A stretch of DNA of 64,000 nt from a virus. The stretch's first letter is position 1, and the number at the start of each line of letters is the position of its first letter. The stretch is taken from IMG/VR virus record IMGVR_UViG_3300011008_000022; one strand, given 5' to 3'. The position numbers and the translations under genes are program-made. The notes beneath the pieces are model-generated. The model was given only the letters and a program-made list of their open reading frames with translations, ran no database searches and was not told the DNA's origin. This document shows, in pieces, positions 1 through 62,655 of this stretch.

Positions 1-1452
1 CGTGGCTTCTGGCATAATATGGATGGTACCAAGAATGCGGTTGCTAACAGCGACGACCGCCGAGGTAACATCAACCGTGCGGGATTCCAGTCTATTTATG
101 CCCGTGCCATTGCCGTGGCCAACGTCATTGAACGTGTGGTGGATGATGTAACCTACTATATCGCTCAGGATAGCGAATATGTGCCACAACAGGGCGACCG
201 CATACTGGAGAATGGTCTTGTTACCGTACAGATGCGTCAGTTCAATACTTCGCCGGCTACTTATTCGCCTGCTCCTGAGAAATGGTCGGTACTCTCTGTA
301 TCTGGTTACTTTGGTACGGATCATCCAGAACGTCAGAAGTTCTTTGTATATACCACGTCCTACATGGCTCGTTTCGAGGGTGTCAATACATGGGAATGGG
401 GCGAACATACCTTTATGGGTGGCTGGGGCGACCTCACGGGCTTCACGATGCTGGAAGACCACGACGGCCAAATCACTCGCAAGGAGTTTACGGGCGAAGG
501 CTTCGTAACCAAGGATGCACACATCTATGGTGTCGTCGATATGTTTACGCGCTTCTCCGACCGTATCGACATCCAACTGTCTCGACCTGATGGCACCATT
601 GCCGATGGTGAACAGCAACGGGCGGACTTCATCTTACGTGACGTGGAGGGTAGCATTATCTCCGGCAACTACACCTTGCAGATCACCCGTCAGTCGGGTA
701 ACGCTGCAGCAGATACAGCATGGAATGCGGCTATCGCTCAGAGATACCCTTCCGGCATACCGTCAGCGTTATATTTCCAGTTCTCTGATGTGCCGGAGAA
801 AGGGGCCGTATTCGTAGTGGCTGCTTCACGTCAGGTGACAACAGACACTACCACTGACACCTATACGACATCGGCATCATTCGTGCTCTCTCGTGCTTAT
901 CCACAAGAAACATTCCTCGGCCCTTGGGACTCTACAACGGAATATGAGCGCACACCACGTCAGTACCCCACCGTCACGCATGGTGGCTGTAAGTGGTATC
1001 TGAAGGTGGCTACAAGCCTGGGCGAAGAGCCACATCCTCTCAGTACATCATGGGGCATGGTATATGGTGCTAACGACCTATCCATTGCTTTCTACAATGA
1101 GAGCGGACAGCGCATCACATCGGCTGTGCAATATCCTGGCAGCGTCAACCTCTTCCTCGATCCGCATCTGCTGTGTGGCAACTTCGATATTACTAACGAA
1201 CTATCGGCTTCTGATTGGGTATGGTCACGCTATACGGGCAACTATGGCGAAGAGATTGATACTCGTACTCCTGCTGACCGTCAGGCTGACCAGGGATGGC
1301 CTAACGCTCACTGGCCGTCAACACCACAGACGCGCACCATCCGCATCAACAACGACGACATGCCGCCGTCATGGGGTAACGGTCCTATCGTCAACTTCAT
1401 CATCACGGCATCCTATAATGGTATCTCCATTCCAAATATAGTCCAGATGTAA
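1..1452 (+). CDS. hypothetical virion-block protein (5' end may lie upstream of window; first ATG at 19)
   Basis: Frame open from base 1 to stop at 1450-1452; 477 aa from ATG 19; no motif recognised; lies in + strand structural block. Confidence 0.6.
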   Translation, partial: RGFWHNMDGTKNAVANSDDRRGNINRAGFQSIYARAIAVANVIERVVDDVTYYIAQDSEYVPQQGDRILENGLVTVQMRQFNTSPATYSPAPEKWSVLSVSGYFGTDHPERQKFFVYTTSYMARFEGVNTWEWGEHTFMGGWGDLTGFTMLEDHDGQITRKEFTGEGFVTKDAHIYGVVDMFTRFSDRIDIQLSRPDGTIADGEQQRADFILRDVEGSIISGNYTLQITRQSGNAAADTAWNAAIAQRYPSGIPSALYFQFSDVPEKGAVFVVAASRQVTTDTTTDTYTTSASFVLSRAYPQETFLGPWDSTTEYERTPRQYPTVTHGGCKWYLKVATSLGEEPHPLSTSWGMVYGANDLSIAFYNESGQRITSAVQYPGSVNLFLDPHLLCGNFDITNELSASDWVWSRYTGNYGEEIDTRTPADRQADQGWPNAHWPSTPQTRTIRINNDDMPPSWGNGPIVNFIITASYNGISIPNIVQM

Positions 1453-1483
1453 CCACCGTGCCCAGCCGTTCTCGGCTGGGTCC
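1453..1483 (+). repeat. family-A hairpin, abuts stop codon
   Basis: ccaccgtgCCCAGCCGttctCGGCTGGGtcc. Confidence 0.9.
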
Positions 1484-1496
1484 TAAACAAAAGAAT

Positions 1497-2267
1497 ATGA
1501 AACAAGACAAATATTTCTTACGCTTTCAGCAGCTCTGCATTGGCATCCTGGCTCAGTCTGACAACTGCATGGAGTCACAACAGCAGTTCAAGTCTGCTCG
1601 CTCCGTTCCTGAACTGGTGACGGCATGGCAGCGATTTTGGGCGGGTGTCCTACACGAAGTACCTGAACAGGTCATCAAGGCTTTTGCTGACCTCTACCCC
1701 GTCTATCGTGATGACATTATTCGTGCCGGTGTCTATTATAACGAGGCTCCGCCTGTCGGCATCTATCCTGAAAACCCTATATCTCCCGTCTCACCCTCCG
1801 ATGCAGCCACCGTGCCCAGCGCTTCTCCGTTGGGTCCTACCACCAACGCCATGATACTCATCGGCGATGCTCCCGCCACCGTTCCCGATGATTCTCCATC
1901 GGGTGAAACAGCTTCTCCATCGGATCTCGTAATTCATGGCCGTAATCGTGTCTATGTCCTCGGCAACCTCCCCGTGACTGTCACCGACAATTCCAGCGTC
2001 CATGTCAACAGCGACCGTGCCGTAGTGACCGTATGTGGTTCTGCTCGTGCTAACATCGAACGGGGAACACTCATCGCTCGTGACCGTGCCGTAGTCAATG
2101 GCAAGGGTCTCATAACCTGCTACGACTCTACGACGATATATGTCTCTGGTGGTGTCCTGCACGATAAAGGACACCTCGATATCATCGCCTATAACGATGC
2201 GGTCATCAACAGCTTCACCAACCGTCGCATCAAACTCAACGACCAGGCAATCCTGAACATCGAATAA
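1497..2267 (+). CDS. hypothetical protein carrying two in-frame family-A hairpins
   Basis: ATG 1497 after A-rich leader; ORF-track start 1458 is a GTG inside the upstream hairpin (MPSRSRLGPK artefact); ATVPSASPLGPT and ATVPDDSPSGET are encoded by hairpins at 1807-1836 and 1876-1905. Confidence 0.7.
   Translation: MKQDKYFLRFQQLCIGILAQSDNCMESQQQFKSARSVPELVTAWQRFWAGVLHEVPEQVIKAFADLYPVYRDDIIRAGVYYNEAPPVGIYPENPISPVSPSDAATVPSASPLGPTTNAMILIGDAPATVPDDSPSGETASPSDLVIHGRNRVYVLGNLPVTVTDNSSVHVNSDRAVVTVCGSARANIERGTLIARDRAVVNGKGLITCYDSTTIYVSGGVLHDKGHLDIIAYNDAVINSFTNRRIKLNDQAILNIE
1807..1836 (+). repeat. family-A hairpin, in frame in CDS 1497..2267
   Basis: ccaccgtgCCCAGCGcttctcCGTTGGGtc (one G-T pair). 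Confidence 0.85.
1876..1905 (+). repeat. family-A hairpin, in frame in CDS 1497..2267
   Basis: ccaccgttCCCGATGattctcCATCGGGtg; a half copy (agcttctccatcgg) follows at 1910-1925. Confidence 0.85.
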
Positions 2268-2275
2268 TAGTCTCT

Positions 2276-2305
2276 CCACCGTGCCCAGTCGTTCTCGGCT
2301 GGGTC
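2276..2305 (+). repeat. family-A hairpin, intergenic
   Basis: ccaccgtgCCCAGTCGttctCGGCTGGGtc (one T-G pair). Confidence 0.9.
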
Positions 2306-2319
2306 CTAAAAGTAAAAGT

Positions 2320-4941
2320 ATGAATAGCCACATTGCCATAACAGCTCAGAAGAACGGCAAGCAGATTCCACTCAATCTGCCGGATGATTTTAGCATCGAC
2401 ATCGACGATCAAAATCCGCTCTTCAACGATAACGAAATGTTCTCATACCCCTGTAGGATGCCTATGGAGGGTAATCGTTTCTTGCTGGGCAATATCGATG
2501 ACCCGCTGAACATCGATCGCCCAGTAGGTCTCGAACATACGAAAATGCGTATCGTGGTGGATAACCAGCCGTTCCGTTCTGGTACGCTCGTCACCGCAGA
2601 GGATGAGGAGATAGACGGTGCGCTGACTATGAATATTTCGGCTTCTGACCATTCTATCGACGATCTGATTGGCGACTTGAAATGTCAGGACATCCCTCTG
2701 AAAGATAAAATCCTGATTGGCGAAAAGATTGGTGCTGTCACAGCTGCTATCAATTACCAGTATCACGTACATATCACATGGGATGGTAAGAAAGCGGACA
2801 CGGACACATGGCCGTCAGCAACGGATTCGTCTGAGGTGGTCTTCACACCACAGGCTTTGGGTTTCTCCTGCCCTGCAGAGTGTAACACCACAGGAAGTAA
2901 GGAGGAAGCGATTGTGGCTTCTGTCATCAACTATGACGATGGCAAGAAACGTAATAAGCCGTCCATCCGTCAGAGCTTTATCAATGTTAGCGAACCGTAC
3001 CCCAACGCGAAGTATTGCAATGCGCGAGTGGCTTACTATCACTATGGACTGGATGAGGAGGGCAAGAAGACCTCTAACAAAATCAATCCGCTCACGAAAA
3101 GGGGTGGACCAGAGAATAAATGGCCATACTGGGTGCTGGATGCTGACCGTCAGCAGTCGGGCATCTGCTTCTATGTCCTGTACTTCCTCGATTGTCTTTT
3201 CTCTTATCTGGGCGTGTCTTTCGATAACAGCGAACTGCTCCAGGTGGAGGATATGCGTCACCTGTGCTTCTTCACAACACACTGCAAGTACGATGAGGAA
3301 TATAAGTACCCGAACCAGGTGCCTTATTTTACCACCATCGAACAGATCAACGCCTGGCTGACATCGCGTGGCACAGGTGCTCACTTCGAGTTCCATGACG
3401 GTGGCAACCGCATGGTCAACAACGTGGACTATATCGACTCTAACGGTACTCGCCACCATGCAGAGGTGGGTAAGGATGGTGTCAACACGATTATGGTGGA
3501 GTCTATCGTCAACAGCCGCTCTGTATCGGGTAATATCATGCGCATGTATGCCAACAGCGAGAACTTCCCTGAAGAGTCGGTAAAAACGGTGCTGGATAGC
3601 CTATGGGCTTCTTTCGGTATTCGTTTTGAATATGACTACGAGAAAAAGCATGTACGTGCTTACTACGTCCGCGAGGTGTTCCGTGATACACAGGATCCTA
3701 TCGACTTCCCTGGACGGGTAATCTCCATGCACAAGATTGCTGAGAAGATTACGGGTGTACGCATGTGCTACTCGGCTGAAAGCAGCAGCAAGGAACAACA
3801 GGGTAATGTGCGCTCCGGCAAAAAGGACTATGATACGTCCTACGATTATATCGACTACCCCCAGAATGCTACCATCACGGATAAGCATTATGAAGAGATA
3901 TTCCGTACTCCTCAGCAGAATAATGCCAGTGGTAACACGAATGTCTATGTGGATAGGGCAACGGGTAACAAGTACCGTATCAAGGTGAATAGCGATGCGG
4001 AAACGGCTATGGACTTGAAGCCGGTGCTCTTTGAGGTAGGACAGTATAAGGGCGTGGAACTGGGCGACTGCTCAGAACTTAACGAGGACTTCATAGAGGA
4101 GATAAAATCGGACTTCGTGCCGATGGTCTTCAATGATGTAAACTATCAGAATGAGGTCAATTCTGCTGCTGGCTCCATGAAGTCGGATGGCTATCAGATC
4201 ATCCTGAATGCTGACCAGGAACAGCCTATCCTTGCGGCTTTCGTCGATGAGGAAATGGAACATGAGTTCCTGGAGCAACGCATCCGTCAGACATTGGCAT
4301 CTAATGTGGCTGAGTTCTATTTCGACGAGGTACTGGATGGCATGATAGAGAACTATGACCCGTCATCCTCTGATGATGGTAATAGTCCGCTGCAGACGGT
4401 CGATTGGGGACTGGCTATCGCTATCATGCGTGGTGGTGGTACGGATGCAACCATACAGACGTATGATCACAACTACGATGGCTTTGGTAACTCGAAATGG
4501 CGCACAGTGGCTGGTCTCTATGCGCTTACGTCTGACAGCCTCGATATGTGGGGCAATGAATACGACTATAACGGTGTATCTCCTGGCATCGGTGGTGGCG
4601 AACGCTTCTCATTGAAGATTCGCTCATGGGTACAGCCGGAATGGGCCAATGCTCCGCTGGTGGATGCTGACGTGGTGGATAGTCAGGGAAACATCGAGAA
4701 GAAAATCAAATCGCGTGGCCTCTTTGACACCTTCATGTCGGAATATGCGAACTTTATCCTAAAACGTCGTAAATACCGCGTCCGCATAGAGTGCTCTGCT
4801 GCTCAGGTGGCAGACGTGCCAAACCATTGGACGCGTCGATTCCGCATCAACGGCATGGTGGGCTTCATTAACAAATTGTCTTATAACGTCTCTGCAAAAG
4901 ATGGTCTTAACGGCCTCGAAGTGGAGTTCTATGTTCTATAA
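2320..4941 (+). CDS. large hypothetical virion-associated protein (873 aa)
   Basis: ATG 2320; track start 2281 is again a GTG inside a hairpin; long uninterrupted ORF; no catalytic motif recognised. Confidence 0.75.
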   Translation: MNSHIAITAQKNGKQIPLNLPDDFSIDIDDQNPLFNDNEMFSYPCRMPMEGNRFLLGNIDDPLNIDRPVGLEHTKMRIVVDNQPFRSGTLVTAEDEEIDGALTMNISASDHSIDDLIGDLKCQDIPLKDKILIGEKIGAVTAAINYQYHVHITWDGKKADTDTWPSATDSSEVVFTPQALGFSCPAECNTTGSKEEAIVASVINYDDGKKRNKPSIRQSFINVSEPYPNAKYCNARVAYYHYGLDEEGKKTSNKINPLTKRGGPENKWPYWVLDADRQQSGICFYVLYFLDCLFSYLGVSFDNSELLQVEDMRHLCFFTTHCKYDEEYKYPNQVPYFTTIEQINAWLTSRGTGAHFEFHDGGNRMVNNVDYIDSNGTRHHAEVGKDGVNTIMVESIVNSRSVSGNIMRMYANSENFPEESVKTVLDSLWASFGIRFEYDYEKKHVRAYYVREVFRDTQDPIDFPGRVISMHKIAEKITGVRMCYSAESSSKEQQGNVRSGKKDYDTSYDYIDYPQNATITDKHYEEIFRTPQQNNASGNTNVYVDRATGNKYRIKVNSDAETAMDLKPVLFEVGQYKGVELGDCSELNEDFIEEIKSDFVPMVFNDVNYQNEVNSAAGSMKSDGYQIILNADQEQPILAAFVDEEMEHEFLEQRIRQTLASNVAEFYFDEVLDGMIENYDPSSSDDGNSPLQTVDWGLAIAIMRGGGTDATIQTYDHNYDGFGNSKWRTVAGLYALTSDSLDMWGNEYDYNGVSPGIGGGERFSLKIRSWVQPEWANAPLVDADVVDSQGNIEKKIKSRGLFDTFMSEYANFILKRRKYRVRIECSAAQVADVPNHWTRRFRINGMVGFINKLSYNVSAKDGLNGLEVEFYVL

Positions 4942-4942
4942 T

Positions 4943-4972
4943 CACAGTGCCCGCTGATTCCGTCAGCGGGTC
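4943..4972 (+). repeat. family-A hairpin variant, 1 nt after the stop codon
   Basis: cacagtgCCCGCTGAttccgTCAGCGGGtc; fully compensated alternative stem. Confidence 0.85.
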
Positions 4973-4989
4973 TCTAAAACGTATAAAAA

Positions 4990-6108
4990 ATGCCTAAAAT
5001 TGAATTGTCCCTTCCCCGCTCCTGGAACCAGTGTACGCTACCTGCGCTCCGTGCTATTGCTGCCGTGCTGACTGACTGCTCGGCACGTATCGATCGCTTC
5101 CATCCTTTTGACATGATGGAGGTAAAGGTGGGGGTATTACTACGTTTAACGAATATCGAAGTGCTGGAACCAATCAACCCGCGAGTAGCGGTCGAAGAGC
5201 AATACTATACCTGCCGCCTACGTCCCTGGACTATCGATGAAGAATATAGTCGTTGGTTCCGTATGCTGCGATACTATCGCAGCTTCTGTGCTTGGTTCCG
5301 TCGCTCTGTCCTCGGACATGATGACACTTTCTCGCTATACGTGTGGCAAATCAATTACTGGCTCACTCCTCACAAAGATCAGGCAACAGGACGCATGGTG
5401 CCTGGTATGCTCGACTGGATGAATAGCGATAGTAAGAGCTTCCTTCAGCGCTTCCCGTTCCCGTCTGTCCGTCGTCGCTCTGGTAAGTGCTCTCGTAAGG
5501 TGACATTCAAGGGACCTAACACGTTTATGGATGGCTTCTCATGGCGACGCTACCGATTCGCTCAGGACTATATGCAGATGTATATCGAACAGCAAAACCA
5601 TTTGCTCGAACTGCAACAGTCTGGCAAGGTGTCGGCAAAGGACTTGCTGAAAGCAACAAAGGCCATGGATCTGTCTAAGGCGCTTTTCCTGGCTACTGTC
5701 TTCAATCGTAAGATAACATTTGTCAACGAGGAAACAGGACAGACTATCACCGATTATCATTACCAGTTTAATCAGCATTCAGATAACAGTCCTTTCTTCC
5801 GTAATTTCGACGATAAGGATTGGCAACTGGTGTGCCTATGGTGGGCGGGCATGATGCACTATTTGCATCAGACTTATCCCAAGGTGTTCAAGGTACAGAA
5901 GGTGAAAGGTAACAAGAAACCTGTCAACCCGCTCATGTTATATGCGCGTACAACGGCAACACTGGAGAAGTACCTCCACTCTACTGCAACGGACATAGAA
6001 AGGGAACCTTACTCCACCATCCTTCAGCAACTCGAAGACATCACACGTCGTAACGAGGAGATAGAAGCTGCAAACCGCAAAATGAGGGCACAATCCCGCC
6101 GTAAGTAG
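4990..6108 (+). CDS. hypothetical protein (372 aa)
   Basis: ATG 4990 after A-rich leader; stop 6106-6108 directly followed by a tandem pair of family-A hairpins. Confidence 0.75.
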   Translation: MPKIELSLPRSWNQCTLPALRAIAAVLTDCSARIDRFHPFDMMEVKVGVLLRLTNIEVLEPINPRVAVEEQYYTCRLRPWTIDEEYSRWFRMLRYYRSFCAWFRRSVLGHDDTFSLYVWQINYWLTPHKDQATGRMVPGMLDWMNSDSKSFLQRFPFPSVRRRSGKCSRKVTFKGPNTFMDGFSWRRYRFAQDYMQMYIEQQNHLLELQQSGKVSAKDLLKATKAMDLSKALFLATVFNRKITFVNEETGQTITDYHYQFNQHSDNSPFFRNFDDKDWQLVCLWWAGMMHYLHQTYPKVFKVQKVKGNKKPVNPLMLYARTTATLEKYLHSTATDIEREPYSTILQQLEDITRRNEEIEAANRKMRAQSRRK

Positions 6109-6175
6109 CCACCGTGCCCAGCGCTTTTTCGCTGGGTTTTCTTCGTCACCGTGCCCAGCCGTTCTCGGCTGGGTC
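6109..6175 (+). repeat. tandem pair of family-A hairpins, first abuts stop codon
   Basis: ccaccgtgCCCAGCGctttttCGCTGGGtt ... tcaccgtgCCCAGCCGttctCGGCTGGGtc. Confidence 0.9.
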
Positions 6176-6214
6176 TTCAAATCACTTTGTCCCGTCCTCG
6201 TCACTCGCATTCTG

Positions 6215-8119: not shown

Positions 8120-8146
8120 TTCTGTATGTCGCTATGTCATAGCGAC
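8119..8146 (+). repeat. family-B hairpin between 6284 and 8167 genes
   Basis: gttctgtatGTCGCTATGtCATAGCGAC. Confidence 0.9.
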
Positions 8147-8166: not shown

Positions 8167-9204
8167 ATGGCACAAGGATTACTCATACAAGGTGCATCAC
8201 CACTCGTAGGCAGCCCTATCACTTATCAGGTGACAGCAGCGGTCATCAGTGGCGATTGCGCTTTTCATCGTGTCAAACTGACGGTATCGGCATTCCTCGA
8301 AGGTGTCGATATCAACTTTGCCGACCTCACGCTGTCCTCTCCGGCTGAGTCGGGAGAAATCCTGAAGTTCGACATCAGCAGCGCACTACGTGCTGTCGCA
8401 GATAAGTATGAGTACACTGTCAACCCGCCTGCCAACTATCCGCGTATCGGATATAGACTGTCTGCCTGCGATGAGTACATGCAGAACGGAGAGGTACACG
8501 ATAACGTGGGCGTGGTGACGATTGACACCATTCAGTATTGCATCATGGGTGCCTACTCGGATATGGAACGTCTGCTATCTGCTGGCAGCAAGTCGGCACA
8601 GCACTTTACACGCAAGCCGAACACGATGCCGGAGGTGGTGGCCGTAGGAGAGAGCATGGTATGCCCTCAGTCCTATGCTCAACCCGTCAGCAGTGGAAAT
8701 ATTACCGTAGGACCTACATCATCGGTGGTAAACATCGTCAACGAGGGATTGCAGACGGTCAATGGCCGTCAGGTGTATGCACTGCCTGCAGGACAGAAAG
8801 ACCGTTACGAGTTCCGCTTTGTCAATGGCCTGGGATGCCTCGAAAGCATCAGCGTAAAGGCTTTGCGTACCTCTGAAACGAACGTTACCCAGGAGTCTTT
8901 CATTCGCTCGGTGCAAGAGACGTTCAACTCATTCTCGCGAGGACTCGTGACTAAGAAAAACGATTACGAGACTTGGAAGATGTGTAGTGGACCGCTCGAC
9001 GAAGCATGGCATTCGTGGTTCATGCACGAGTTCATCATGGCTAAGTTCGCCTGGATAAAAATCAACGGACATTGGATAGGGTGCCACATCGTTCCTGAAG
9101 AAACAGTAGATGGCATCGATCGTACCAGCGGCAACTTCATGCAGGTGGAGTTCTCAGTACAACTTGACATCAATGGCAGCCCACTCGCTGCTTTGGCCAT
9201 ATAG
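8167..9204 (+). CDS. hypothetical virion-block protein (345 aa)
   Basis: Preceded by family-B hairpin 8119-8146; stop abutted by family-A hairpin 9205-9233. Confidence 0.75.
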   Translation: MAQGLLIQGASPLVGSPITYQVTAAVISGDCAFHRVKLTVSAFLEGVDINFADLTLSSPAESGEILKFDISSALRAVADKYEYTVNPPANYPRIGYRLSACDEYMQNGEVHDNVGVVTIDTIQYCIMGAYSDMERLLSAGSKSAQHFTRKPNTMPEVVAVGESMVCPQSYAQPVSSGNITVGPTSSVVNIVNEGLQTVNGRQVYALPAGQKDRYEFRFVNGLGCLESISVKALRTSETNVTQESFIRSVQETFNSFSRGLVTKKNDYETWKMCSGPLDEAWHSWFMHEFIMAKFAWIKINGHWIGCHIVPEETVDGIDRTSGNFMQVEFSVQLDINGSPLAALAI

Positions 9205-9233
9205 CCACCAATCCCAGCCGTTCTCGGCTGGAC
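9205..9233 (+). repeat. family-A hairpin, abuts stop codon
   Basis: ccaccaatCCCAGCCGttctCGGCTGGac. Confidence 0.85.
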
Positions 9234-54627: not shown

Positions 54628-54695
54628 CCACTACTCCCAGCCGTTCTCGGCTGGGTTTTTCTTTTCCTCCCAGCGCTTCTCCGCTGGGTCTTTTT
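54628..54695 (+). terminator. two family-A hairpins, each with a T-run, after the C5-methyltransferase gene
   Basis: ccactactCCCAGCCGttctCGGCTGGGttttt and CCCAGCGcttctcCGCTGGGtcttttt. Confidence 0.8.
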
Positions 54696-55281: not shown

Positions 55282-58200
55282 ATGGCCGATAAACAGATAT
55301 ACATCAAAATCAGTGCGGATTCAGCACAACCAGTAGCAGCCGTAAAAGCCATGCGCAACGAACTGTCGCGCTTGCAGAAGGCGTATGATGCCATCAACAC
55401 GTCCACAGCTACTGGCGCTCAACGTGCCCAGAAACTGCAAAAGGAAATGGCCGACCTCCGTGCGCTCATCAAACAGCAGGAGGCTGACATGAATAAAGTG
55501 TCGAAGGTGATTACCAATCTGTCGAATGCGTCTTTGTCTCAGCTCAACCAGGCGCTTCGTCAGGTGAAAAAGGAAATCTCGCGCACCAGTGAGTCCAGCC
55601 CGAAACTGGAAGAGTTACGCCAGAAATACAAGGCTATTACCGACCAGATTAAGGTGATGAATGGCGAAATGATTAACATCAAAAAGCACATGGGCGAACT
55701 CTCCACGCAGACGGATTCCTGGCTGCAACGTGCCATCAATCAGCAGAAACAGCTGGTGGAGTCCACGCAGAAGACGAGTAGCGCTTATCAGGGACAGGTC
55801 AACATCCTACACCAACTCCAAAACGAACAGGCGCGTCGTGCTGTCTCTACCATCAGCGATGGGGGGGCTTCTGCCGATGCACTCCGCACCGCTCGTGCTA
55901 ACCTGGTGTCTTATCGCGACCAACTGGGTAAGGGTGGCATCCTGCCGGCATCGGGCAATGTGGCTACTGAGATCGAGCGCATCAATGCCGAACTGAAAAA
56001 GTGTGATGACCAACTGGACGCTATCGCTGGCAAGGAGAAACAGATTGAATTGACCACCGACCAACTCCAGCAAAAGGCTGATAATATCATCCTCGACCCC
56101 AAGAAATTCTCGCCAAAGGAGATAAAGGCTGCCATCGATGAGATTCAGAAGAAGTTGAACAACCTCGGCACGAATGATACTGCTCGTAAGAAACTCAACG
56201 AACAGATGAAGCAGCTGAAAAACATTCTCGATGGTGTCGATCACGAACTGGTGAATATCGGGGACCTCTTGAAGCCTGGCAACCTCCGCAAAGCACCACT
56301 CGAAACGCTCCAAAAGGCTGCAAAGCAGTTGGAGAATGAAATGGCAAAGCTCAACCGCGACCAACAGCAGTATATCGATAAGCAAAAACAACTCGCCGCT
56401 ATCCGTGGCGAGATAGAACGTACCACCGGCGCTATTAACCGTCAGGGGTCTGCATGGAAAACGACGTTTCGCAATATCTCTATGTACTTCGGTGTCTTCC
56501 AACTGTTTTCTATCGCTCAACAGAAACTGCAGGGGATGTTGCAAAGCAACCTGGCTTATTCTGACCAACTCGCCGACATCCGCAAGGTGACGGGTCTCGC
56601 CACCAAGGAGGTCAACGAACTATCTGACAGCCTGGCAACGCTCAACACGCGCTCTACGGTACAGGATTTGGCCGACCTCGCTTATCAAGGCGGTAAGATG
56701 GGATTCGGAAAGTACGGTGTAGAAGGCATGAGCGCATTCGTCCGCGCTGCCGACCAGGTAAAGGTGGCGCTGTCTGATGACCTCGGCGATGACAGCCTCT
56801 TGCAGATCTCCAAGCTCGTCGATACCATGGGACTGATACCTAAACTGGGTGTCGAACGTTCCATGCTTGCTGTCGGCTCATCCATCAACCAGCTTTCGGC
56901 CACTTCTACGGCATCAGGAACGCATATCGTGGACTTCGCGAAGCGCCTCACAGGTCTCTCGCGTATCACGGGTATCACAACGCCGGAACTACTGGCACTC
57001 GGCTCGGCTGCCGATGCACTTGGGCAGGCTCCTGAAGTCGCGGCCACGGCTTTCGGTAAACTCTTCACGTCGCTGCAAACCAACCACAACCTGATTGAAC
57101 AGCAGCTGAACATGGAAAAGGGCACCATCAACAACCTCTTCTCACAGGGTAAGGCGATGGAGGCTATTCTTCAAATCATGGAGAAGATGCGCGAAAAGGG
57201 TAATATGAATGCCCTCGGCAACATCTGGAAAGACCTCGGTTCTGAGGGACAGCGCCTGATAGGTGTCATGGCTACCATGTCTAAGAATGTCGATACCGTT
57301 CGTGCTCATGTCGAAGAGTCTAACGTCGCCTTTGAGGAAGCTACGTCTCTTACCAATGAGTACGCTCTGAAACAGGACACAGCCAATGCCATTCTCGAAA
57401 AGGGTAACAACCTCTGGGCAAAGGCTTTCACCAACCCTGAAGGGGTGGATATGGTCAAGCAGATGGCTCAGGCATGGTACGACCTCTCGAAGTCGATGAC
57501 TTCCAACGAGGCTTCCATGTGGATAATGAAAAATCTCCTCGGACTGATTGCTGCTGAATTGAAGATACTCCTCGCACTCCTGCCGGCAATCCTCACAGGT
57601 TTGCTCTTCAAGGGTGCCTCTGTCGCTATCATCGGCCTCGCATCGTCTATCGGACTCATGGGTAAGAATGCGGTACTCGCCACCCTGCAGACAAAGGGAT
57701 TGGTGGCTGCATGGCACGCCCTGAATACGGCTCAGAAGATGAACGTCATCGGCCTCTGTATCTCTCTTCTCACGGGTCTCGCTATCGCCATCGCTTCTGT
57801 CATCAAGAAAGGCAACGAGGCTACTACATGGATGCAGGGCTTCAATAGCACCATGTCCGACTTCAACCGTGAGTTTGCTATTGCTGACGACCGCCTGAAG
57901 CGCTTTAAGAAGGCTATCGATGATGCTGCTACTGGCTCACGTCAACGTGCAGCTGCCATCCGTAATTTCAACAAGGAATATGGGCAGTATCTCTCGAAGA
58001 TGCTCACCGAGAAATCTACGGCTGATGATATCGCCAAAGCCTATAAGGAGGTGGTGAAGCAACTCCGTGCGAAGATTGCCCTTCAGATGAAGGAAAAGGA
58101 TATCACCTCACAGGTGGCTCCTCGTGTCGGATGGTCTGCCGACCGCCTCACAGAATACGACAACGTGGCAGGTGGCTCTGCCTACAATGGCACATGGCTG

Positions 58201-61071
58201 AAAGCCTATGTCGATGACATGAGGGCTGCCGGAAAGTCTGTCGAAGATATCAATAAAGACCTGGCAAAGAAACTGGGTGTCGAAGGCAAGGTGGCTCGTG
58301 ATGCTTATAACCGCCGTTCTGATAAGACTTTGCGTACTACTTTCTTCGATCAAGAGAGTTATCGGGCACAGGCGCAATATGATATGGATGGTGGTTTTGC
58401 TGCCGCCAGAAATACGACCCGCGCCCTCACCCAAGCCGAACAGATGTTGTATGCCGCTACTCGTTATGCTACGCAGGCGTACTCCGCATCCAACGCCATG
58501 AACCGCGTCAATAAGAAGTGGAAGCCGTTTGAGGAGGACCTATCGACGGTCACTGATGAGACTCCTGGCACCCTCGACAACGATGCACCCGATAAGGAAG
58601 CCGAGAAGCGCCGCAAGGCTGAGGAAGCGGCTCGACGCAAGGCGCTCCGTGCGGAAATGAAGGAGGAACAGGCTAAGGCTCAGGCTATCGTCGATAATGT
58701 CAAGAACTACTACGAGCGTCAGATTGCTGCCATTACGGAAATGGCTACAAAGACGGGCATGGATTCTGAACTCCAGAAGAAACTCGTCGATGGTATGACC
58801 GTCCGCATGAATAATGCACTGGCTAATGTCCGTCAGGCTATCGCTGGCACTGAGAACGATTGGGCTGACTTCCGCCAGTCGATGATAAATGACCTCTACG
58901 AACCGCTGTCTGAGGATGGTACTAACCAGTCCACACAGTTGCTCGATAACATCATCCATAATGATATCGACAAACTGAAGGAAATGATTACGGTTCTCTC
59001 GAAAGAACTGGGACAGAATGGCTCTGTGCTTCTCGATCAGATATGGCGTAAGGCTACTGAGAATGAACTGAAAAACGCTAACCAACAGAACAAGGCATAC
59101 CAGGAGCGTCAGAGGGTGCTTCTGGAAAAGAACTATACGGGCAAGGTAAACCTCGACTACGAGAACCAGATGGAACAGTTTGGTGTCGCCGAACTGACCT
59201 CTGAACAGATTGCTCAGATGATGGGGTGGTCGCAGAAGGGTAACAACGAGGCTATCCAACAGTTTCTCGATGACCGTACCGAACAGTGGCAAAAGGCGTT
59301 TGCATCGGCCCGTAAGAATGTCGTTGACCTGCTCTCTGTCGATGCCAACAGTGAGGATGCACCTGATAAGGTGCTCACTATCCTCTTCGGTAAGGATTAC
59401 AAGTCTTATCTCGCCGGCACGGGCCTCTCGTCACTGCTCGATATGTCTGCCGACCAGTTCAAGGTGTTCTACCAGAAACTCATCGAATACTCTGATGCCT
59501 ATACTGATGCTCAGAAGAAAGCCTACGACGAGGCAAAACGTCGGGCGGATTTCATCTTTAATAACAATCCTACCATTCAGAGTATCGACCAGTCAACACA
59601 ACAGCTGTCAACCATCAACAGCGACCAGCAACGCTTCGAGTCTGATAAGAACATCGGACAGCAGATGGGTATGTCCTGGAACATCGATTCTGACCCCGAA
59701 ATTCTGCGCTATCGCCTGCTGGCTGAACGTGCCCGTCTCTACTATGAGGATATGGCGCGTCTGCGTGAACAGGATAAGATCTCTGAACAGCAGCTGACGG
59801 ATGCAAAGCGTCAGATGATGGAGGCTCAGTCTAACATGGCCGACCAGGTGGCTCGTAAGTTCCATGAGCGGGTGTCTCTGCTCCAGAACTTCTCCGAACC
59901 GCTGAACACCTTTGCCGAAGGGGTAGGGGAGTCGCTGGGTAACATGATCTACGACACCGAACAGTCGGATGTCAAGATGAAAGACTTGCTGAAAGACATG
60001 CTGAAGTCGTATGTGAAGATGTCGCTGCAACTTATTGCCCAGGACCTCACACGCCGTGTCACTAAGCAACTCTACTACCGTCAGGAGGAAATGGATGAGA
60101 CAATGCACCAGCAGACCATGCTGCAAATACAGCAGCTCTACCAGTCGCTGATGTTGACAGCTCAGACTACTGGCGATGCAGCGCGTCTTACACAACACGC
60201 CACATCGAATGCTACCGAACTGTCAGCAGAGGCGGGTGCTACCACTGGTAAGGTGGGCCTCGGTATTGCCGGTGGTGCAGCTAAGATCATCGGCACCCTG
60301 GGCTTCTGGGGTATTCCGCTGATTGGTGTGATTACGGCACTCTTGATGGGACTGCTCTCTTGGGCTATCGGATTGGCTTTCGGTGGCGATGACAGCGGTG
60401 CCAGTGCATCGGATGCTACGCCTAACGTCAAACTCGCCACAGGTATGTTGACGTATGACAGCGGTAACGTGCAGAGTGTGGGCAACGGTTCTCCCGTTGC
60501 TTCTCCCTCCGGCTATGCGCCCTCCGCCTCTCCTGGTGGTAGTGGTGCGCCCGCTGGTGCTGCCGGCGGGGATAGAACGCCTGTCCTCGGTTCTGATGGC
60601 TATGTCTATCAGGCTCGCCAGGTGCCACAACTGCAGACGGGTCTCGTCACGTCGCCTATCGCCACCATGGTCAACGGACAACCGTCACTGGTTGGCGAAC
60701 GTGGCCCTGAAATGGTGATTGGACGCGAGACAACAGCAGCAATGCAGATGGCACGTCCCGACCTCCTCGCGGCTATCGTGAAGTTTGATAAGAACTACTC
60801 CAATGGCCATGCCTATCGCACCTATGACGAAGGCAACCTCTCCGACTTCGCCACCGTGCCCGATGGATCTCCATCGGGTGAAGGCACTCTCACCAAAGAG
60901 GATATCGACGGACTCCGTTCTACGCTCTCCGAGTTTACAGCGGTCATGCTGGCTATCAAGCGCAACGGCCTCCATGTCAACAAGTACGGACGTGGTGGCA
61001 TCGCTCAGGAGTCGCAGGATGGCGCTAATTTCATGCGTCGTAACTCCGGCGACCGTCTCTGGAAAGGTTAG
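55282..61071 (+). CDS. tail tape measure protein
   Basis: 1929 aa; long coiled-coil regions; TP901-type core (ADLAYQGGKMGFG...SINQLSATSTASGTHIVDFAKRL...LGSAADALGQ); central hydrophobic segments; in-frame hairpin 60851-60880. Confidence 0.85.
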   Translation: MADKQIYIKISADSAQPVAAVKAMRNELSRLQKAYDAINTSTATGAQRAQKLQKEMADLRALIKQQEADMNKVSKVITNLSNASLSQLNQALRQVKKEISRTSESSPKLEELRQKYKAITDQIKVMNGEMINIKKHMGELSTQTDSWLQRAINQQKQLVESTQKTSSAYQGQVNILHQLQNEQARRAVSTISDGGASADALRTARANLVSYRDQLGKGGILPASGNVATEIERINAELKKCDDQLDAIAGKEKQIELTTDQLQQKADNIILDPKKFSPKEIKAAIDEIQKKLNNLGTNDTARKKLNEQMKQLKNILDGVDHELVNIGDLLKPGNLRKAPLETLQKAAKQLENEMAKLNRDQQQYIDKQKQLAAIRGEIERTTGAINRQGSAWKTTFRNISMYFGVFQLFSIAQQKLQGMLQSNLAYSDQLADIRKVTGLATKEVNELSDSLATLNTRSTVQDLADLAYQGGKMGFGKYGVEGMSAFVRAADQVKVALSDDLGDDSLLQISKLVDTMGLIPKLGVERSMLAVGSSINQLSATSTASGTHIVDFAKRLTGLSRITGITTPELLALGSAADALGQAPEVAATAFGKLFTSLQTNHNLIEQQLNMEKGTINNLFSQGKAMEAILQIMEKMREKGNMNALGNIWKDLGSEGQRLIGVMATMSKNVDTVRAHVEESNVAFEEATSLTNEYALKQDTANAILEKGNNLWAKAFTNPEGVDMVKQMAQAWYDLSKSMTSNEASMWIMKNLLGLIAAELKILLALLPAILTGLLFKGASVAIIGLASSIGLMGKNAVLATLQTKGLVAAWHALNTAQKMNVIGLCISLLTGLAIAIASVIKKGNEATTWMQGFNSTMSDFNREFAIADDRLKRFKKAIDDAATGSRQRAAAIRNFNKEYGQYLSKMLTEKSTADDIAKAYKEVVKQLRAKIALQMKEKDITSQVAPRVGWSADRLTEYDNVAGGSAYNGTWLKAYVDDMRAAGKSVEDINKDLAKKLGVEGKVARDAYNRRSDKTLRTTFFDQESYRAQAQYDMDGGFAAARNTTRALTQAEQMLYAATRYATQAYSASNAMNRVNKKWKPFEEDLSTVTDETPGTLDNDAPDKEAEKRRKAEEAARRKALRAEMKEEQAKAQAIVDNVKNYYERQIAAITEMATKTGMDSELQKKLVDGMTVRMNNALANVRQAIAGTENDWADFRQSMINDLYEPLSEDGTNQSTQLLDNIIHNDIDKLKEMITVLSKELGQNGSVLLDQIWRKATENELKNANQQNKAYQERQRVLLEKNYTGKVNLDYENQMEQFGVAELTSEQIAQMMGWSQKGNNEAIQQFLDDRTEQWQKAFASARKNVVDLLSVDANSEDAPDKVLTILFGKDYKSYLAGTGLSSLLDMSADQFKVFYQKLIEYSDAYTDAQKKAYDEAKRRADFIFNNNPTIQSIDQSTQQLSTINSDQQRFESDKNIGQQMGMSWNIDSDPEILRYRLLAERARLYYEDMARLREQDKISEQQLTDAKRQMMEAQSNMADQVARKFHERVSLLQNFSEPLNTFAEGVGESLGNMIYDTEQSDVKMKDLLKDMLKSYVKMSLQLIAQDLTRRVTKQLYYRQEEMDETMHQQTMLQIQQLYQSLMLTAQTTGDAARLTQHATSNATELSAEAGATTGKVGLGIAGGAAKIIGTLGFWGIPLIGVITALLMGLLSWAIGLAFGGDDSGASASDATPNVKLATGMLTYDSGNVQSVGNGSPVASPSGYAPSASPGGSGAPAGAAGGDRTPVLGSDGYVYQARQVPQLQTGLVTSPIATMVNGQPSLVGERGPEMVIGRETTAAMQMARPDLLAAIVKFDKNYSNGHAYRTYDEGNLSDFATVPDGSPSGEGTLTKEDIDGLRSTLSEFTAVMLAIKRNGLHVNKYGRGGIAQESQDGANFMRRNSGDRLWKG
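60851..60880 (+). repeat. family-A hairpin, in frame in the tape-measure gene
   Basis: ccaccgtgCCCGATGGatctCCATCGGGtg (peptide ATVPDGSPSG). Confidence 0.9.
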
Positions 61072-61101
61072 TCACCGTGCCCAGCAGTTTTCGGCTGGGT
61101 T
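61072..61101 (+). repeat. family-A hairpin, abuts the tape-measure stop codon
   Basis: tcaccgtgCCCAGCAGttttCGGCTGGGtt. Confidence 0.85.
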
Positions 61102-61102
61102 C

Positions 61103-61141
61103 TCATAAATTCATAAATTCATTAAATTATCAATTCATCAA
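61103..61141 (+). repeat. TTCATMA array before the ACP gene
   Basis: ctcataaattcataaattcattaaattatcaattcatca. Confidence 0.8.
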
Positions 61142-61144
61142 ATT

Positions 61145-61408
61145 ATGGAAGAAAAACTTTTCGCTCGTATCGTGGCGCTCCTCACCGCCCACTTCGACAA
61201 CATGCCTGCAGCCGAGGACATCCACCTCGACGACAATCTGCATGAAGACCTCAATCTCGATTCTATCGACATTGTGGACTTCATTATGATGTGTGAAACG
61301 AACTTCAACATTAAACTCGACATGACAGATGCGAAGAACACGCACACCCTGCGCGACCTCATCCGTTCTATCATCGAAGTAAAGCCCAGCCTATGCGACG
61401 CACAGTAA
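61145..61408 (+). CDS. acyl carrier protein
   Basis: 87 aa acidic four-helix pattern with the phosphopantetheine-site motif DLNLDSIDIVDFI (DSxD). Confidence 0.75.
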   Translation: MEEKLFARIVALLTAHFDNMPAAEDIHLDDNLHEDLNLDSIDIVDFIMMCETNFNIKLDMTDAKNTHTLRDLIRSIIEVKPSLCDAQ

Positions 61409-62625
61409 TCACGGGCATGGGCATCTGGTCCTGCATCGGTCAGTCCGTTCAGGAGGTGGCTCAGTCTCTCCGTCTTGGAAAGAGTGGCATCGGCATCGAT
61501 CCTGAGCGTACCGCCTACGGCTACCAATCACCCCTTACCGGCATCGTGCCGCGTCCCGACATCAAGGCTCAGGGATTGCGACGCTCTCAGCGCATCACAC
61601 TCTCCGAACCTGGTGAATATGGCTACATGGCCATGAAAGAGGCGCTGACGATGGCTCCTGTCAGCGACCTCTATCGCTGTGGCCTTATCGTCAGCAATGA
61701 CAGCACTGCTGGCGCTCTCGCTGAGACAGAGGCTATCATGGCGGAATACCATGACAGCCGACGACTGGGTGCCGGCATGGTGTTCCGCACCCTCAATAGC
61801 TCGGTATCTATGTCGCTGGCTTCCATCTTTGGCATCGGTGGCCTCACACTCTCCGTCTCTGCTGCCTGTGCCGGTGGTGGCCACGCTATCGGTCTCGCTC
61901 ATTCGCTCATTCAGTCCGGCCAACTGGACTGCTGCATTGTGGTAGGCGCTCAGGAGGTAGGACTACATGCCTATACATCCTTTGATGCACTCGGTCTCTT
62001 CAGCAAGCGTACCGACAACCCAGCAGCTGCCTCACGTCCGTTTGACACAGAGCGTGACGGCCTCGTGCCCTCTGGTGGCGCTGCCTGCGTTATCCTCGAA
62101 ACAGCCGGACATGCCGCTATGGGAAACAGAAAACCCTTGGCCATGGTCGATGGCTATGGCTTCTCCACCAGTCCCGATCTCGTTTCTCCCTCTTCCGATG
62201 CTATTTACCAGTCCATGACCGCCGCCCTATCTGCCGCCACTGTGCCCAGCGGTTCTCCGCTGGGTCCTGGTATCTCCGCTATCATGGCTCACGCTACCTC
62301 CACGCCCGATGGCGACCGTGCCGAGGCAGAAGCTATCCACCGCTTCTGTCTTGATAATGGTCTATCTCATCCTTTCGTCATCAGCACCAAGGCGCTCACA
62401 GGTCACGAGTGCTGGATGTCGGGTGTCTCTCAGATCGTCTATGCACTCATACAGATGCAAGGTGGTTTCATAGCACCAAACATCAACCTCCGCACCATCG
62501 ACCCAGCAGCAGCTACGCTACGCATTCCAACAGCGCCAACCGTCACCACGCTAACCACCGTTCTCTGCAACGCCTTCGGTTTCGGTGGCACCAACAGTAG
62601 CCTGGTAATCTCTCGCGCTGGCTAA
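61393..62625 (+). CDS. beta-ketoacyl-ACP synthase (KAS I/II, FabF/FabB-like)
   Basis: VITGMGIWS, active-site SAACAGGGHAIG (Cys), HATSTPDGDRAE (His), TGHECWMSG (His), NAFGFGGTNSSLVI; overlaps the ACP gene by 16 nt; in-frame hairpin 62237-62266. Confidence 0.85.
   Translation: MRRTVITGMGIWSCIGQSVQEVAQSLRLGKSGIGIDPERTAYGYQSPLTGIVPRPDIKAQGLRRSQRITLSEPGEYGYMAMKEALTMAPVSDLYRCGLIVSNDSTAGALAETEAIMAEYHDSRRLGAGMVFRTLNSSVSMSLASIFGIGGLTLSVSAACAGGGHAIGLAHSLIQSGQLDCCIVVGAQEVGLHAYTSFDALGLFSKRTDNPAAASRPFDTERDGLVPSGGAACVILETAGHAAMGNRKPLAMVDGYGFSTSPDLVSPSSDAIYQSMTAALSAATVPSGSPLGPGISAIMAHATSTPDGDRAEAEAIHRFCLDNGLSHPFVISTKALTGHECWMSGVSQIVYALIQMQGGFIAPNINLRTIDPAAATLRIPTAPTVTTLTTVLCNAFGFGGTNSSLVISRAG
62237..62266 (+). 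repeat. family-A hairpin, in frame in the ketoacyl synthase gene
   Basis: ccactgtgCCCAGCGGttctCCGCTGGGtc (peptide ATVPSGSPLG). Confidence 0.9.
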
Positions 62626-62655
62626 TCACCGTGCCCAGCGCCTCTCCGCTGGGCT
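62626..62655 (+). repeat. family-A hairpin, abuts the KAS stop codon
   Basis: tcaccgtgCCCAGCGcctctcCGCTGGGct. Confidence 0.9.

What the first reader, a model, noticed from the sequence alone, without database searches (positions are those of the whole stretch)
1450..62655. Intergenic hairpins start 0-2 nt after stop codons
For at least 10 genes the CCACC/TCACC flank begins immediately after the stop. Examples: taa|CCACCGTG at 1453, tag|CCACCGTG at 6109, tag|CCACCAAT at 9205, tag|TCACCGTG at 9777, tga-c|CCACCGTG at 20792, tag|TCACCGTG at 61072, and taa|TCACCGTG at 62626. The copies at 4943, 50049 and 50731 start within 3 nt. Such exact register is not expected for terminators, which only need to be somewhere downstream. 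It suggests either that the element prefers or creates a stop-proximal insertion site, or that the hairpin acts on the terminating ribosome. Possible effects are ribosome-dependent unfolding, coupling to the next start, read-through, or 3' end protection.
Basis: seen in the sequence. Interest (0 to 1): 0.6.

Follow-up and report, generated by a model that had tools for sequence, protein, structure and literature searches.

The report
Phage hairpin cassettes docked at stop codons
In this ~100-kb uncultured Prevotella-type phage, a short repeated hairpin really does begin at the first base after many stop codons, most likely because whole stop-to-start spacer cassettes are gained, swapped and lost in a genome with no spare DNA, as with bacterial REP and phage PeSL elements.

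Summary
In the window, 8 of 14 junctions where a family-A hairpin (G-YCACCGTG-CCCAGCCG-TTCT-CGGCTGGG-TCY) follows a + strand gene have 0 nt between stop and flank, and 11 of 14 are within 1 nt. Uniform placement in the gap predicts 0.5 (P about 1e-9). Excluding a 12-nt leader gives P about 1e-5. Two full-length relatives give the same result.

Related phages explain the register:
- The same junctions are empty, hold family A, or hold a second hairpin family (B) in the same register.
- Stop codons stay put, apart from a one-codon shift at one junction, so insertion did not shorten ORFs.
- At one junction a hairpin-plus-leader cassette sits exactly inside a TAATG gene overlap.
- One contig carries a gene duplication whose joint is a crossover between two copies.

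The unit that turns over is therefore the stop-to-ATG spacer. No Y1 transposase, TnpB or tyrosine integrase is encoded. Polarity follows the DNA strand, not the gene direction.

An effect on the terminating ribosome is geometrically possible (7-8 nt spacer) but untested. One orthologue has only a 2-nt spacer. Stop-docked REPs and PeSLs are known, and this scan holds many similar notes for other genomes.

The parts
1453..1483 (+). Family-A hairpin cassette, 0 nt after TAA of ORF 19..1452. A 13-nt A-rich leader follows, then ATG at 1497.
   Evidence: (RNA fold -18.6 kcal/mol)
2276..2306 (+). Family-A copy 8 nt after the TAA of a TAA-TAG tandem stop pair (5 nt after its TAG). G001 and G002 carry a family-B hairpin at this junction instead.
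4942..4973 (+). Family-A variant (TCACAGTG-CCCGCTGA...), 0 nt after TAA of ORF 2320..4941.
6109..6176 (+). Tandem pair of family-A copies (6109 and 6146). The first is 0 nt after TAG of ORF 4990..6108 and is followed by a T-run, so it is terminator-like. Absent in G002, L020 and L022.
9205..9235 (+). Family-A copy 0 nt after TAG of ORF 8167..9204. Relatives L019-L022, L036 and L039 have an empty 19-nt spacer with the stop at the same codon. L018 has two copies.
9777..9807 (+). Family-A copy 0 nt after TAG of ORF 9267..9776. The junction exists in three states in relatives: A, family B, or empty.
11157..11187 (+). Family-A copy at a convergent junction. The stop (TTA, 11187-11189) of minus gene 11187..11753 lies 2 nt after the stem. 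T-run on the + strand.
11876..11906 (+). Family-A copy in + polarity between two minus-strand genes. The stop of 11906..12250(-) lies 2 nt after the stem. It is preceded by TAG although no ORF ends there.
20792..20822 (+). Family-A copy 1 nt after TGA of ORF 19960..20790. ATTCATMAA repeats follow.
31681..31711 (+). Family-A copy 19 nt after TGA of ORF 30192..31661, with a T-run (terminator-like).
32392..32422 (+). Hairpin with a degenerate flank. The stem starts 6 nt after TAA of ORF 31776..32393, at the +/- convergent boundary.
42170..42200 (+). Family-A copy in + polarity between two minus-strand genes. Relatives L098, L099 and L101 carry family B plus C hairpins here.
45687..45717 (+). Family-A copy whose shortened flank overlaps TAG (45685-45687). 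7-nt spacer to the stem and a 13-nt leader to ATG at 45731.
50048..50078 (+). Family-A copy 1 nt after TAA of ORF 46378..50046. Relatives L097-L101 and G002 are empty here, with the stop at the same codon.
50730..50760 (+). Family-A copy 0 nt after TAA of ORF 50130..50729. In L095 it has recombined with the 50048 copy, giving a tandem duplication of that gene.
54628..54691 (+). Tandem family-A pair (54628 and 54661) with T-runs, 47 nt after the stop and just behind family-B hairpin 54603-54623.
61072..61102 (+). Family-A copy 0 nt after TAG of the 1929-aa tape-measure-like ORF 55282..61071. ATTCATMAA repeats follow, then ATG at 61145.
62626..62656 (+). Family-A copy 0 nt after TAA of the ketoacyl-synthase-like ORF 61393..62625. 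Absent in G002, where the stop is one codon earlier.
62766..63130 (+). Non-coding hairpin cluster holding family-A copies 62766 and 63100, family-B hairpin 63071-63089 and two other hairpins.
8119..8146 (+). Family-B hairpin (G-TTCTGTAT-GTCGCTAT-GTC-ATAGCGAC). Its G is the last base of TAG of ORF 6284..8119, and the spacer to the stem is again 8 nt. G002 carries a family-A cassette here.
60851..60881 (+). Example of the in-ORF copies. The others start at 1807, 1876, 6834, 11026, 12610, 27049, 40859, 40925, 43271, 44149, 52535 and 62237. In the + strand ORFs they are read as (A)-T-V-P-x-x-S-x-x-G. None is preceded by TAR.

Best explanation
The hairpin is the core of an intercistronic cassette that fills the whole space from a stop codon to the next start.

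Anatomy: a 9-nt arm (G-YCACCGTG), an 8-9-bp GC stem with a TTCT loop, TC(Y), and usually a 12-18-nt A-rich leader.

In this phage lineage such cassettes, in at least two sequence families with one shared DNA polarity, are gained, lost, swapped and recombined as discrete units at ORF boundaries. Genes here are otherwise contiguous or overlapping, and the bases before a start codon are needed for initiation. The only viable place for a cassette is therefore flush against the upstream stop. The conserved arm begins there and shares its first G with TAG stops.

Shown: the register, the turnover, unchanged stop positions, crossover between copies, selection on the stem, and the absence of a phage-encoded recombinase of the three classes tested.

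Inferred: the cassettes are copied by a strand-specific process, either a host enzyme acting on single-stranded DNA or replication-linked template switching. Also inferred: in mRNA the hairpin works as an intercistronic 3' stabiliser or attenuator (a true terminator where a T-run follows) that uncouples neighbouring cistrons.
For: Register
- See the statistics.

Turnover at fixed gene boundaries
- Junction 9777 exists as family A, family B or empty. The B unit is a clean 26-nt indel, TAGT^...^CCTAAAAT, with no target duplication.
- Junctions 2267 and 8119 carry A in one genome and B in another, with the swap bounded by the stop and the ATG.
- Junction 42170 carries A in one clade and B plus C in another.
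- Junctions 9205, 50048 and 62626 are filled in some genomes and empty in others, with the stop conserved.
- In G002 a hairpin-plus-leader cassette of about 46 nt sits between the clamp and dUTPase-region genes, which overlap as TAATG in the window and G001.
- Copies present in only one of G001 and G002 are at 0-1 nt in 10 of 12 cases.
- Copy number runs from 50 (G001) and 45 (G002) to 8, 6, 0 and 0 in syntenic relatives.

Recombination
- L095 has a tandem duplication of gene 50130..50729 joined by a chimeric hairpin made from copies 50730 and 50048.

Structure
- 95% of stem cells are paired, and 6 of 8 pairs show changes on both sides.
- G.T mispairs outnumber A.C 29 to 11 when read on the + strand.
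- Fold energy is about -18 kcal/mol.
- Only 5 window copies have a T-run.

Element boundary
- The base at -1 is G in most in-ORF and other copies.
- TAG is enriched at docked stops: 7 of 13 against 13 of 69 elsewhere. TGA is absent.

Second register
- The element end lies 12-18 nt from the next ATG in tight junctions.
- The family-B stem end lies 14-20 nt from the ATG.
Against: - No mechanism of copying was observed. No transposase or recombinase was found in four phage genomes, and the host is unknown.
- Most filled-versus-empty comparisons involve diverged flanks, so insertion cannot be told apart from excision or patch recombination. Only one or two events are clean.
- TAA or TAG also lies directly before copies at four junctions where no ORF ends. 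This hints at some sequence preference that the packing argument does not explain.
- The absolute strand polarity is unexplained by an RNA role. It holds for 2 intergenic and 3 in-ORF family-A copies, plus several family-B and C hairpins, inside the minus-strand gene block.
Confidence: 0.5

Rival explanations
1. Ribosome-directed function. The hairpin is kept 7-8 nt after the stop because it acts on the terminating ribosome. It could stall it, with tmRNA-mediated down-regulation of the upstream gene as reported for E. coli REPs under 16 nt from a stop. It could also promote re-initiation at the next ATG, or stimulate read-through.
For: - Two unrelated flanks (family A and family B) both place the stem 8 nt after the stop.
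- That distance matches the 3' edge of a ribosome with the stop in its A site, and the 5-9-nt spacers of recoding signals (own knowledge).
[quoted passage not shown] 2015, as summarised in PMC12306157).
- The base after the stop is C or T, and C is a weak termination context in E. coli (own knowledge).
Against: - G001 has an orthologous copy only 2 nt from the stop (junction 79818). Other copies have 4-7-nt spacers.
- For two minus-strand genes the stop lies 2 nt from the stem on the other side.
- Relatives lack the hairpin at the same junctions without change to the ORFs.
- In more distant relatives the hairpin-to-stop spacers scatter from 1 to 21 nt.
- Gap lengths show no frame preference, and the read-through frames are heterogeneous: 15 extra codons at 1453, and in-frame fusion to the next gene at 50730 (read from the sequence).
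Confidence: 0.17
2. Pure function plus compaction. The hairpins are ordinary mRNA terminator or processing signals that are not mobile in any sense. They abut stops only because deletion bias removes every non-functional base.
For: - The genome is very compact. Many junctions have 4 nt or less, or overlap as TAATG.
- Wide gaps are filled with other repeated motifs such as ATTCATMAA just before the ATG.
- Five copies have T-runs at the ends of gene blocks.
Against: - Near-identical 31-mers sit at dozens of unrelated junctions, with 4- to 8-fold differences in copy number between syntenic relatives.
- About 13 copies lie inside ORFs.
- Lineage-specific copies are already flush with the stop.
- There is one clean 26-nt unit indel.
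- Polarity ignores gene direction.
Confidence: 0.18
3. DNA-level signal. The hairpins act on one DNA strand, for example as lagging-strand priming or protein-loading sites, as nicking sites, or in packaging. Their position at gene ends only reflects where they are tolerated.
For: - Polarity is strictly single-strand: 50 of 50 family-A copies in G001, 123 of 123 in partial relatives, and family B the same apart from one ambiguous overlapping hit among 70.
- The polarity holds inside the minus-strand gene block.
- GC skew is negative throughout, including that block, which suggests one replication direction.
- The phage encodes its own clamp, ligase and a primase-helicase-like protein.
Against: - Spacing is not regular (coefficient of variation 1.07, with clusters and tandems).
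- Relatives with the same replication genes have 0-8 copies.
- The excess of G.T over A.C favours pairing in the + sense transcript.
- One flipped copy exists in G002.
Confidence: 0.12

Closest known systems
REP / tagged palindromic repeats of bacteria (GTAG and CGTC families; Di Nocera et al. 2013, PMC3733652), and stop-proximal REPs that regulate translation (Liang, Rudd & Deutscher 2015)
   Same: - Short GC-rich palindromes with a conserved 5' arm and high copy number.
- Mostly downstream of ORFs, and often abutting or supplying the stop codon.
- Some copies lie inside ORFs.
- G.T pairs in the stems.
- Many copies lie under 16 nt from a stop.
   Different: - No GTAG or CGTC tag next to the stem.
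- No RAYT or Y1 transposase in the genome.
- No inverted pairs (BIMEs). All copies share one polarity.
- Carried by a phage, at about one copy per 2 kb.
- No high-copy bacterial genome was found among the representatives of 185,579 species.
PeSLs (promoter-early stem-loops) of T4-type phages (Arbiol et al. 2010, PMC2839356; PMC4122927)
   Same: [quoted passage not shown]
- Recombination between copies deletes, duplicates or swaps genes.
- Cassettes differ between close relatives.
   Different: - No recognisable promoter in the tight cassettes.
- The hairpin sits at the extreme 5' edge, against the stop.
- Copies also occur inside ORFs.
- Polarity is independent of gene direction.
- Copies are spread over the whole genome rather than confined to hyperplastic regions.
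IS200/IS605-type single-strand 'peel and paste' elements
   Same: - Hairpin with a short 5' guide-like arm.
- Strict strand bias that would follow the replication direction.
- One clean unit indel without target duplication.
   Different: - No TnpA or TnpB.
- No left and right ends.
- No fixed 4-5-nt target.
Integron attC sites
   Same: - A folded single-strand recombination site that begins right after the cassette ORF's stop.
- All in one orientation.
   Different: - No integrase.
- Much shorter.
- No R/L boxes or extrahelical bases.
T7 intercistronic RNase III sites and intrinsic terminators
   Same: Hairpins between cistrons that would define or protect mRNA ends.
   Different: - The 8-9-bp stem is too short for RNase III.
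- Most stop-docked copies lack a U-tract.

Membership tests
REP / REPtron | Short GC-rich palindrome, many extragenic copies | tested here: met
   About 35 copies in the window and 50 in G001. The stem is supported by covariation.
REP / REPtron | Conserved GTAG or CGTC tetranucleotide next to the palindrome | tested here: not met
   The arm is G-YCACCGTG in family A and G-TTCYGTAT in family B. CGTG and GTAT match the tags at only 3 of 4 positions.
REP / REPtron | Cognate Y1 (RAYT) transposase gene in the genome | tested here: not met
   PF01797 is absent from G001, G002, G003 and G005, and the controls were positive. The host genome is unknown.
REP / REPtron | Copies frequently in inverted pairs (BIMEs) | tested here: not met
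   All copies lie on one strand, apart from one flipped copy in G002.
PeSL-type phage regulatory cassette | Repeated stop-to-ATG intergenic cassette containing a stem-loop | tested here: met
   (a shared module of about 55 nt).
PeSL-type phage regulatory cassette | Host-type early promoter inside the cassette | tested here: inconclusive
   No sigma-70-type match inside the cassettes. Bacteroidota promoters are not covered by that scan.
PeSL-type phage regulatory cassette | Recombination between copies that reshuffles genes | tested here: met
   L095 has a tandem gene duplication with a chimeric hairpin. A/B cassette swaps occur at 2267, 8119, 9777 and 42170.
Intrinsic terminator | GC hairpin followed directly by a U-tract | tested here: not met
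   Met only for copies 6109, 11157, 31681 and 54628/54661. Of the copies at 0-1 nt from a stop, only 6109 has a T-run; the others lack one.
RNase III processing site (T7 type) | About 20 bp or more of double-stranded RNA | tested here: not met
   8-9 bp stem.
IS200/IS605-like single-strand element | Y1 transposase, with or without TnpB | tested here: not met
IS200/IS605-like single-strand element | Strand-specific orientation and insertion without target duplication | tested here: met
   Polarity. One clean 26-nt indel without duplication.
Integron attC | Tyrosine integrase acting on the folded site | tested here: not met
   PF00589 is absent from four genomes.
Stop-proximal translational REP (Liang et al. 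2015) | [quoted passage not shown] | tested here: met
   The spacer from stop to stem is 7-9 nt at 11 window junctions.
Stop-proximal translational REP (Liang et al. 2015) | Ribosome stalling and tmRNA-dependent down-regulation | not testable with these tools
   This needs ribosome profiling or reporters.

The most novel reading that the evidence does not exclude
The hairpins are a transposase-less, strand-specific mini-element. It is copied through single-stranded DNA by a host enzyme or a replication-linked mechanism, and it homes to the first base after a stop codon. Its 8-nt arm is tuned to the footprint of the terminating ribosome, so that each insertion resets the translational coupling and mRNA stability of two neighbouring phage genes. 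This would be a self-spreading 'expression spacer' rather than a passive repeat.
Probability: 0.18. Interest if true: 0.7.

Novelty: new variant of a known kind. Interest (0 to 1): 0.45.

Why it matters
If correct, this phage lineage shows at unusual density (about one copy per 2 kb) how short hairpin cassettes colonise gene boundaries.

- Cassettes convert overlapping, translationally coupled genes into separately initiated ones. They also provide homology for gene duplication and swapping.
- This links bacterial REP biology, including the reported effect of stop-proximal REPs on translation, with PeSL-type modular shuffling in phages.
- It does so in Bacteroidota, where translation initiation and mRNA processing are poorly understood.
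- The three-state junctions (empty, family A, family B) among near-identical phages are natural experiments. They could be used to measure what an intercistronic hairpin does to expression.

The strict DNA-strand polarity without any encoded recombinase remains a real open question.

Tried and rejected
- **Known RNA families, tRNAs, known phages:** no match.
- **Whole genome of the window:** not held. The close IMG/VR relative G001 was used instead.
- **Target-site duplication:** the TAA often seen after GGGTCC belongs to the native A-rich leader. It is also present at the empty site in L036. The clean family-B indel has no duplication.
- **Strict TAR target:** rejected. None of the window's 12 examined in-ORF copies is preceded by TAR, and only 2 of 45 in-ORF sequences across the five genomes are. 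A weaker preference cannot be excluded.
- **Element creates the stop or shortens the ORF:** rejected at 5 junctions.
- **Link to the phage's DGR:** VR and TR repeats lie elsewhere, with no family-A hairpin beside them.
- **Regularly spaced replication signals:** rejected. The coefficient of variation of spacing is 1.07.
- **Host-derived high-copy REP:** only 1-4 copies per 8-kb locus in some Prevotella and Bacteroidaceae MAG contigs, and chance hits elsewhere.
- **Phage-encoded Y1 transposase, TnpB or tyrosine integrase:** none found.
- **Functional read-through products:** extension frames are heterogeneous and gap lengths show no frame bias (read from the sequence).
- **My first codon-usage gene caller** missed several minus-strand genes. 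It was corrected using Pfam hits.

Full report
**What the element is**

The window is part of an uncultured phage of about 100 kb.
- It encodes a 1929-aa tape-measure-like protein, a sliding clamp, an NAD ligase, a ParA-like ATPase and several methylases.
- Its own assembly is not held.
- The closest record, G001 (101,861 bp), aligns to the window at 80-98% identity (87-98% over the long blocks).

A hairpin scan and a covariance model (R1) find about 35 strong copies of one element, all on the + strand. I call it family A: G-YCACCGTG / CCCAGCCG-TTCT-CGGCTGGG / TCY.
- The stem is real. 95% of cells are paired, and 6 of 8 pairs carry changes on both sides.
- Fold energy is about -18 kcal/mol.
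- No Rfam family matches.

**The observation**

I counted junctions where a copy follows a + strand gene.
- Window: 8 of 14 have 0 nt between stop and arm, and 11 of 14 are within 1 nt.
- Uniform placement inside each gap predicts 0.49 at 0 nt (P=1.3e-9). Forbidding the 12 nt before the next start predicts 2.58 (P=1e-5).
- G001 gives 9 of 17 (P=7e-9) and G002 gives 11 of 16 (P=8e-12).

The register is real and is not chance.

There is a second register. In tight junctions the element ends 12-18 nt before the next ATG. The whole spacer is then stop, 31-nt element, A-rich leader, ATG, for 43-52 nt in total.

**What relatives show**

I fetched 87 related loci and three more whole genomes. Copy number falls from 50 (G001) and 45 (G002) to 8, 6, 0 and 0 in syntenic relatives. 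The hairpins are therefore dispensable and expanded in one lineage.

Orthologous junctions are polymorphic:
- **9777:** family A in the window clade, a different hairpin (family B, G-TTCYGTAT / GCTGCTGT-GCT-ACAGCAGC) in L019, L021, L022 and L039, and empty in L020 and L036. The B unit is a clean 26-nt indel directly after TAG-T, with no target duplication.
- **2267 and 8119:** A in one genome and B in another. The swap is bounded by the stop and the ATG.
- **42170:** A in one clade, B plus a third hairpin type in another.
- **9205, 50048 and 62626:** filled or empty, with the stop at the same codon or one codon away. Insertion did not shorten the ORFs.
- **Clamp/dUTPase-region junction:** the window and G001 have an overlapping TAATG. 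G002 has TAA, a family-A hairpin, a 15-nt leader and then ATG. The inserted unit is the whole intercistronic cassette, placed exactly between stop and start.
- **L095:** a tandem duplication of gene 50130..50729. Its joint is a chimeric hairpin with the arm of copy 50730 and the tail of copy 50048, which marks a crossover inside the repeat.

Copies present in only one of G001 and G002 are at 0-1 nt in 10 of 12 cases, against 10 of 18 for shared copies. The flush position therefore exists from the start and is not reached by gradual trimming.

**Where the element really begins**

- The base before the arm is G in most in-ORF and other copies.
- Family B has the same conserved G nine bases before its stem.
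- TAG is over-represented at docked stops: 7 of 13 against 13 of 69 elsewhere in G001. TGA is absent there.

With TAG stops, the element overlaps the stop by one base. GTAG-tagged REPs are reported to supply the TAG stop of flanking ORFs in a similar way (PMC3733652).

TAA or TAG also sits directly before copies at four junctions where no ORF ends. However, none of the window's 12 examined in-ORF copies is preceded by TAR, and only 2 of 45 in-ORF sequences across the five genomes are. A strict TAR target is rejected, and a weak preference stays open.

**Polarity**

Family A and family B share one DNA polarity in every genome examined.
- Family A: 50 of 50 in G001, 123 of 123 in partial relatives, and one flipped copy in G002.
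- Family B: 69 of 70 matches, the exception being a hit that overlaps a + strand hit.
- Sources.

This holds inside the minus-strand gene block at 32.4-44.6 kb and around minus gene 11187..11753. The stops of minus genes 11187..11753 and 11906..12250 lie 2 nt from the 3' side of the stem. GC skew is negative across the whole window, including the minus block. Polarity therefore follows the DNA strand, possibly the replication direction, and not transcription.

Spacing is irregular (coefficient of variation 1.07), which argues against evenly spaced replication signals.

No Y1 transposase, TnpB or tyrosine integrase is encoded by four of these genomes. No bacterial genome in the species collection carries the element at high copy number.

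**Function**

- Of the window's stop-docked copies (0-1 nt), only 6109 has a T-run. In all, five window copies are terminator-like, at the ends of gene blocks.
- G.T mispairs outnumber A.C mispairs 29 to 11 when read on the + strand. This favours pairing in the sense transcript, although orthologous copies are not independent.

I infer an mRNA role as an intercistronic hairpin: a 3' stabiliser or attenuator that also uncouples neighbouring cistrons.

**The ribosome hypothesis**

The 7-8-nt spacer puts the stem at about the leading edge of a ribosome with the stop in its A site (own knowledge). It also lies within the under-16-nt range in which E. coli REPs are reported to reduce translation of the upstream gene (Liang et al. 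2015, as summarised in PMC12306157).

Several results count against it as the cause of the register:
- An orthologous copy in G001 has only a 2-nt spacer.
- Other copies have 4-7 nt.
- The two minus-gene cases have 2 nt.
- Spacers scatter from 1 to 21 nt in distant relatives.
- Junctions work without any hairpin.

It remains a live secondary possibility.

**Verdict**

The register is best explained by the biology of a stop-to-start cassette in a genome with no neutral spacer. Cassettes are born flush against the stop and are exchanged as units.

This is a phage variant of known kinds: REPs that abut stops, and PeSL cassettes (PMC2839356). This scan's own notes list many similar stop-docked repeats in other genomes.

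What is unusual here is the copy density, the two families that share one niche and one polarity, the in-ORF copies, and the lack of any encoded recombinase.

Noticed in passing
window 5265-5283, 6245-6263, 8128-8146, 11852-11870, 27479-27495, 30143-30161, 31810-31828, 37331-37349, 38406-38424, 54603-54623, 63071-63089: Second hairpin family (B): G-TTCYGTAT arm, 8-bp stem (GTCGCTAT type) and 3-nt loop. There are 70 matches in five genomes, all in the same DNA polarity as family A apart from one hit that overlaps a + strand hit. The stem end usually lies 14-20 nt upstream of a start codon. It also lies just upstream of minus-strand gene starts without being flipped.
   Followed up: partly
window 11794-11810 and 32445-32461: Third small hairpin type (ATTGTY-CGGCGAT-NNN-ATCGCCG). 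It occurs in clusters with families A and B at block boundaries, and again in + polarity.
   Followed up: no
window 12729-28450 and 61109-61143 (for example 20835-20853, 21147-21165, 23736-23754, 24376-24394, 27513-27531): An 8-nt-periodic motif (A/T)TTCAT(A/C)AA(A/T)T, often doubled. There are 22 matches against 0.37 expected. All but one are on the + strand, and the single minus-strand hit is the reverse reading of a palindromic + strand site at 34993-35010. The motif sits directly upstream of start codons and is a candidate leader, operator or promoter element.
   Followed up: partly
L095 (IMGVR_UViG_3300038674_000232) about 10110-10900: Tandem duplication of the 199-aa gene orthologous to window 50130..50729, joined by a chimeric family-A hairpin. 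It could be a real unequal crossover or an assembly artefact.
   Followed up: partly
window 50130-51929: ORF 50130..50729 and the clamp gene 50778..51929 are in the same frame. Only the TAA at 50727-50729 separates them, so read-through would fuse them. This is probably coincidence.
   Followed up: no
window 61145-62625: A beta-ketoacyl-synthase-like gene (Pfam PF00109/PF02801) preceded by an 87-aa ORF. This is an unusual auxiliary gene for a phage, and the small ORF was not tested for acyl-carrier identity.
   Followed up: no
window 62626-63500; G002 (oriented) about 52292: A non-coding stretch packed with at least six hairpins of several types. G002 holds the only flipped family-A copy at the matching place. 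It may be an origin or a regulatory region.
   Followed up: no
window 28522-29385: ParA/MinD-type ATPase gene. With no integrase found in the relatives, this hints at a plasmid-like prophage lifestyle.
   Followed up: no
window 42745-43656: Long ORFs on both strands overlap here: 299 aa on + and 282 aa on -. The in-frame family-A copy at 43271 and codon usage favour the + ORF inside an otherwise minus-strand block.
   Followed up: partly
L119-L172 (Prevotella and Bacteroidaceae MAG contigs): The same arm-plus-hairpin occurs at 1-4 copies per 8 kb in several rumen and gut MAG contigs. Many copies sit in GC-rich coding-like context, read as ..TVPSGSPLG... One contig (L162) has an inverted pair. 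These may be related prophages or host copies.
   Followed up: partly
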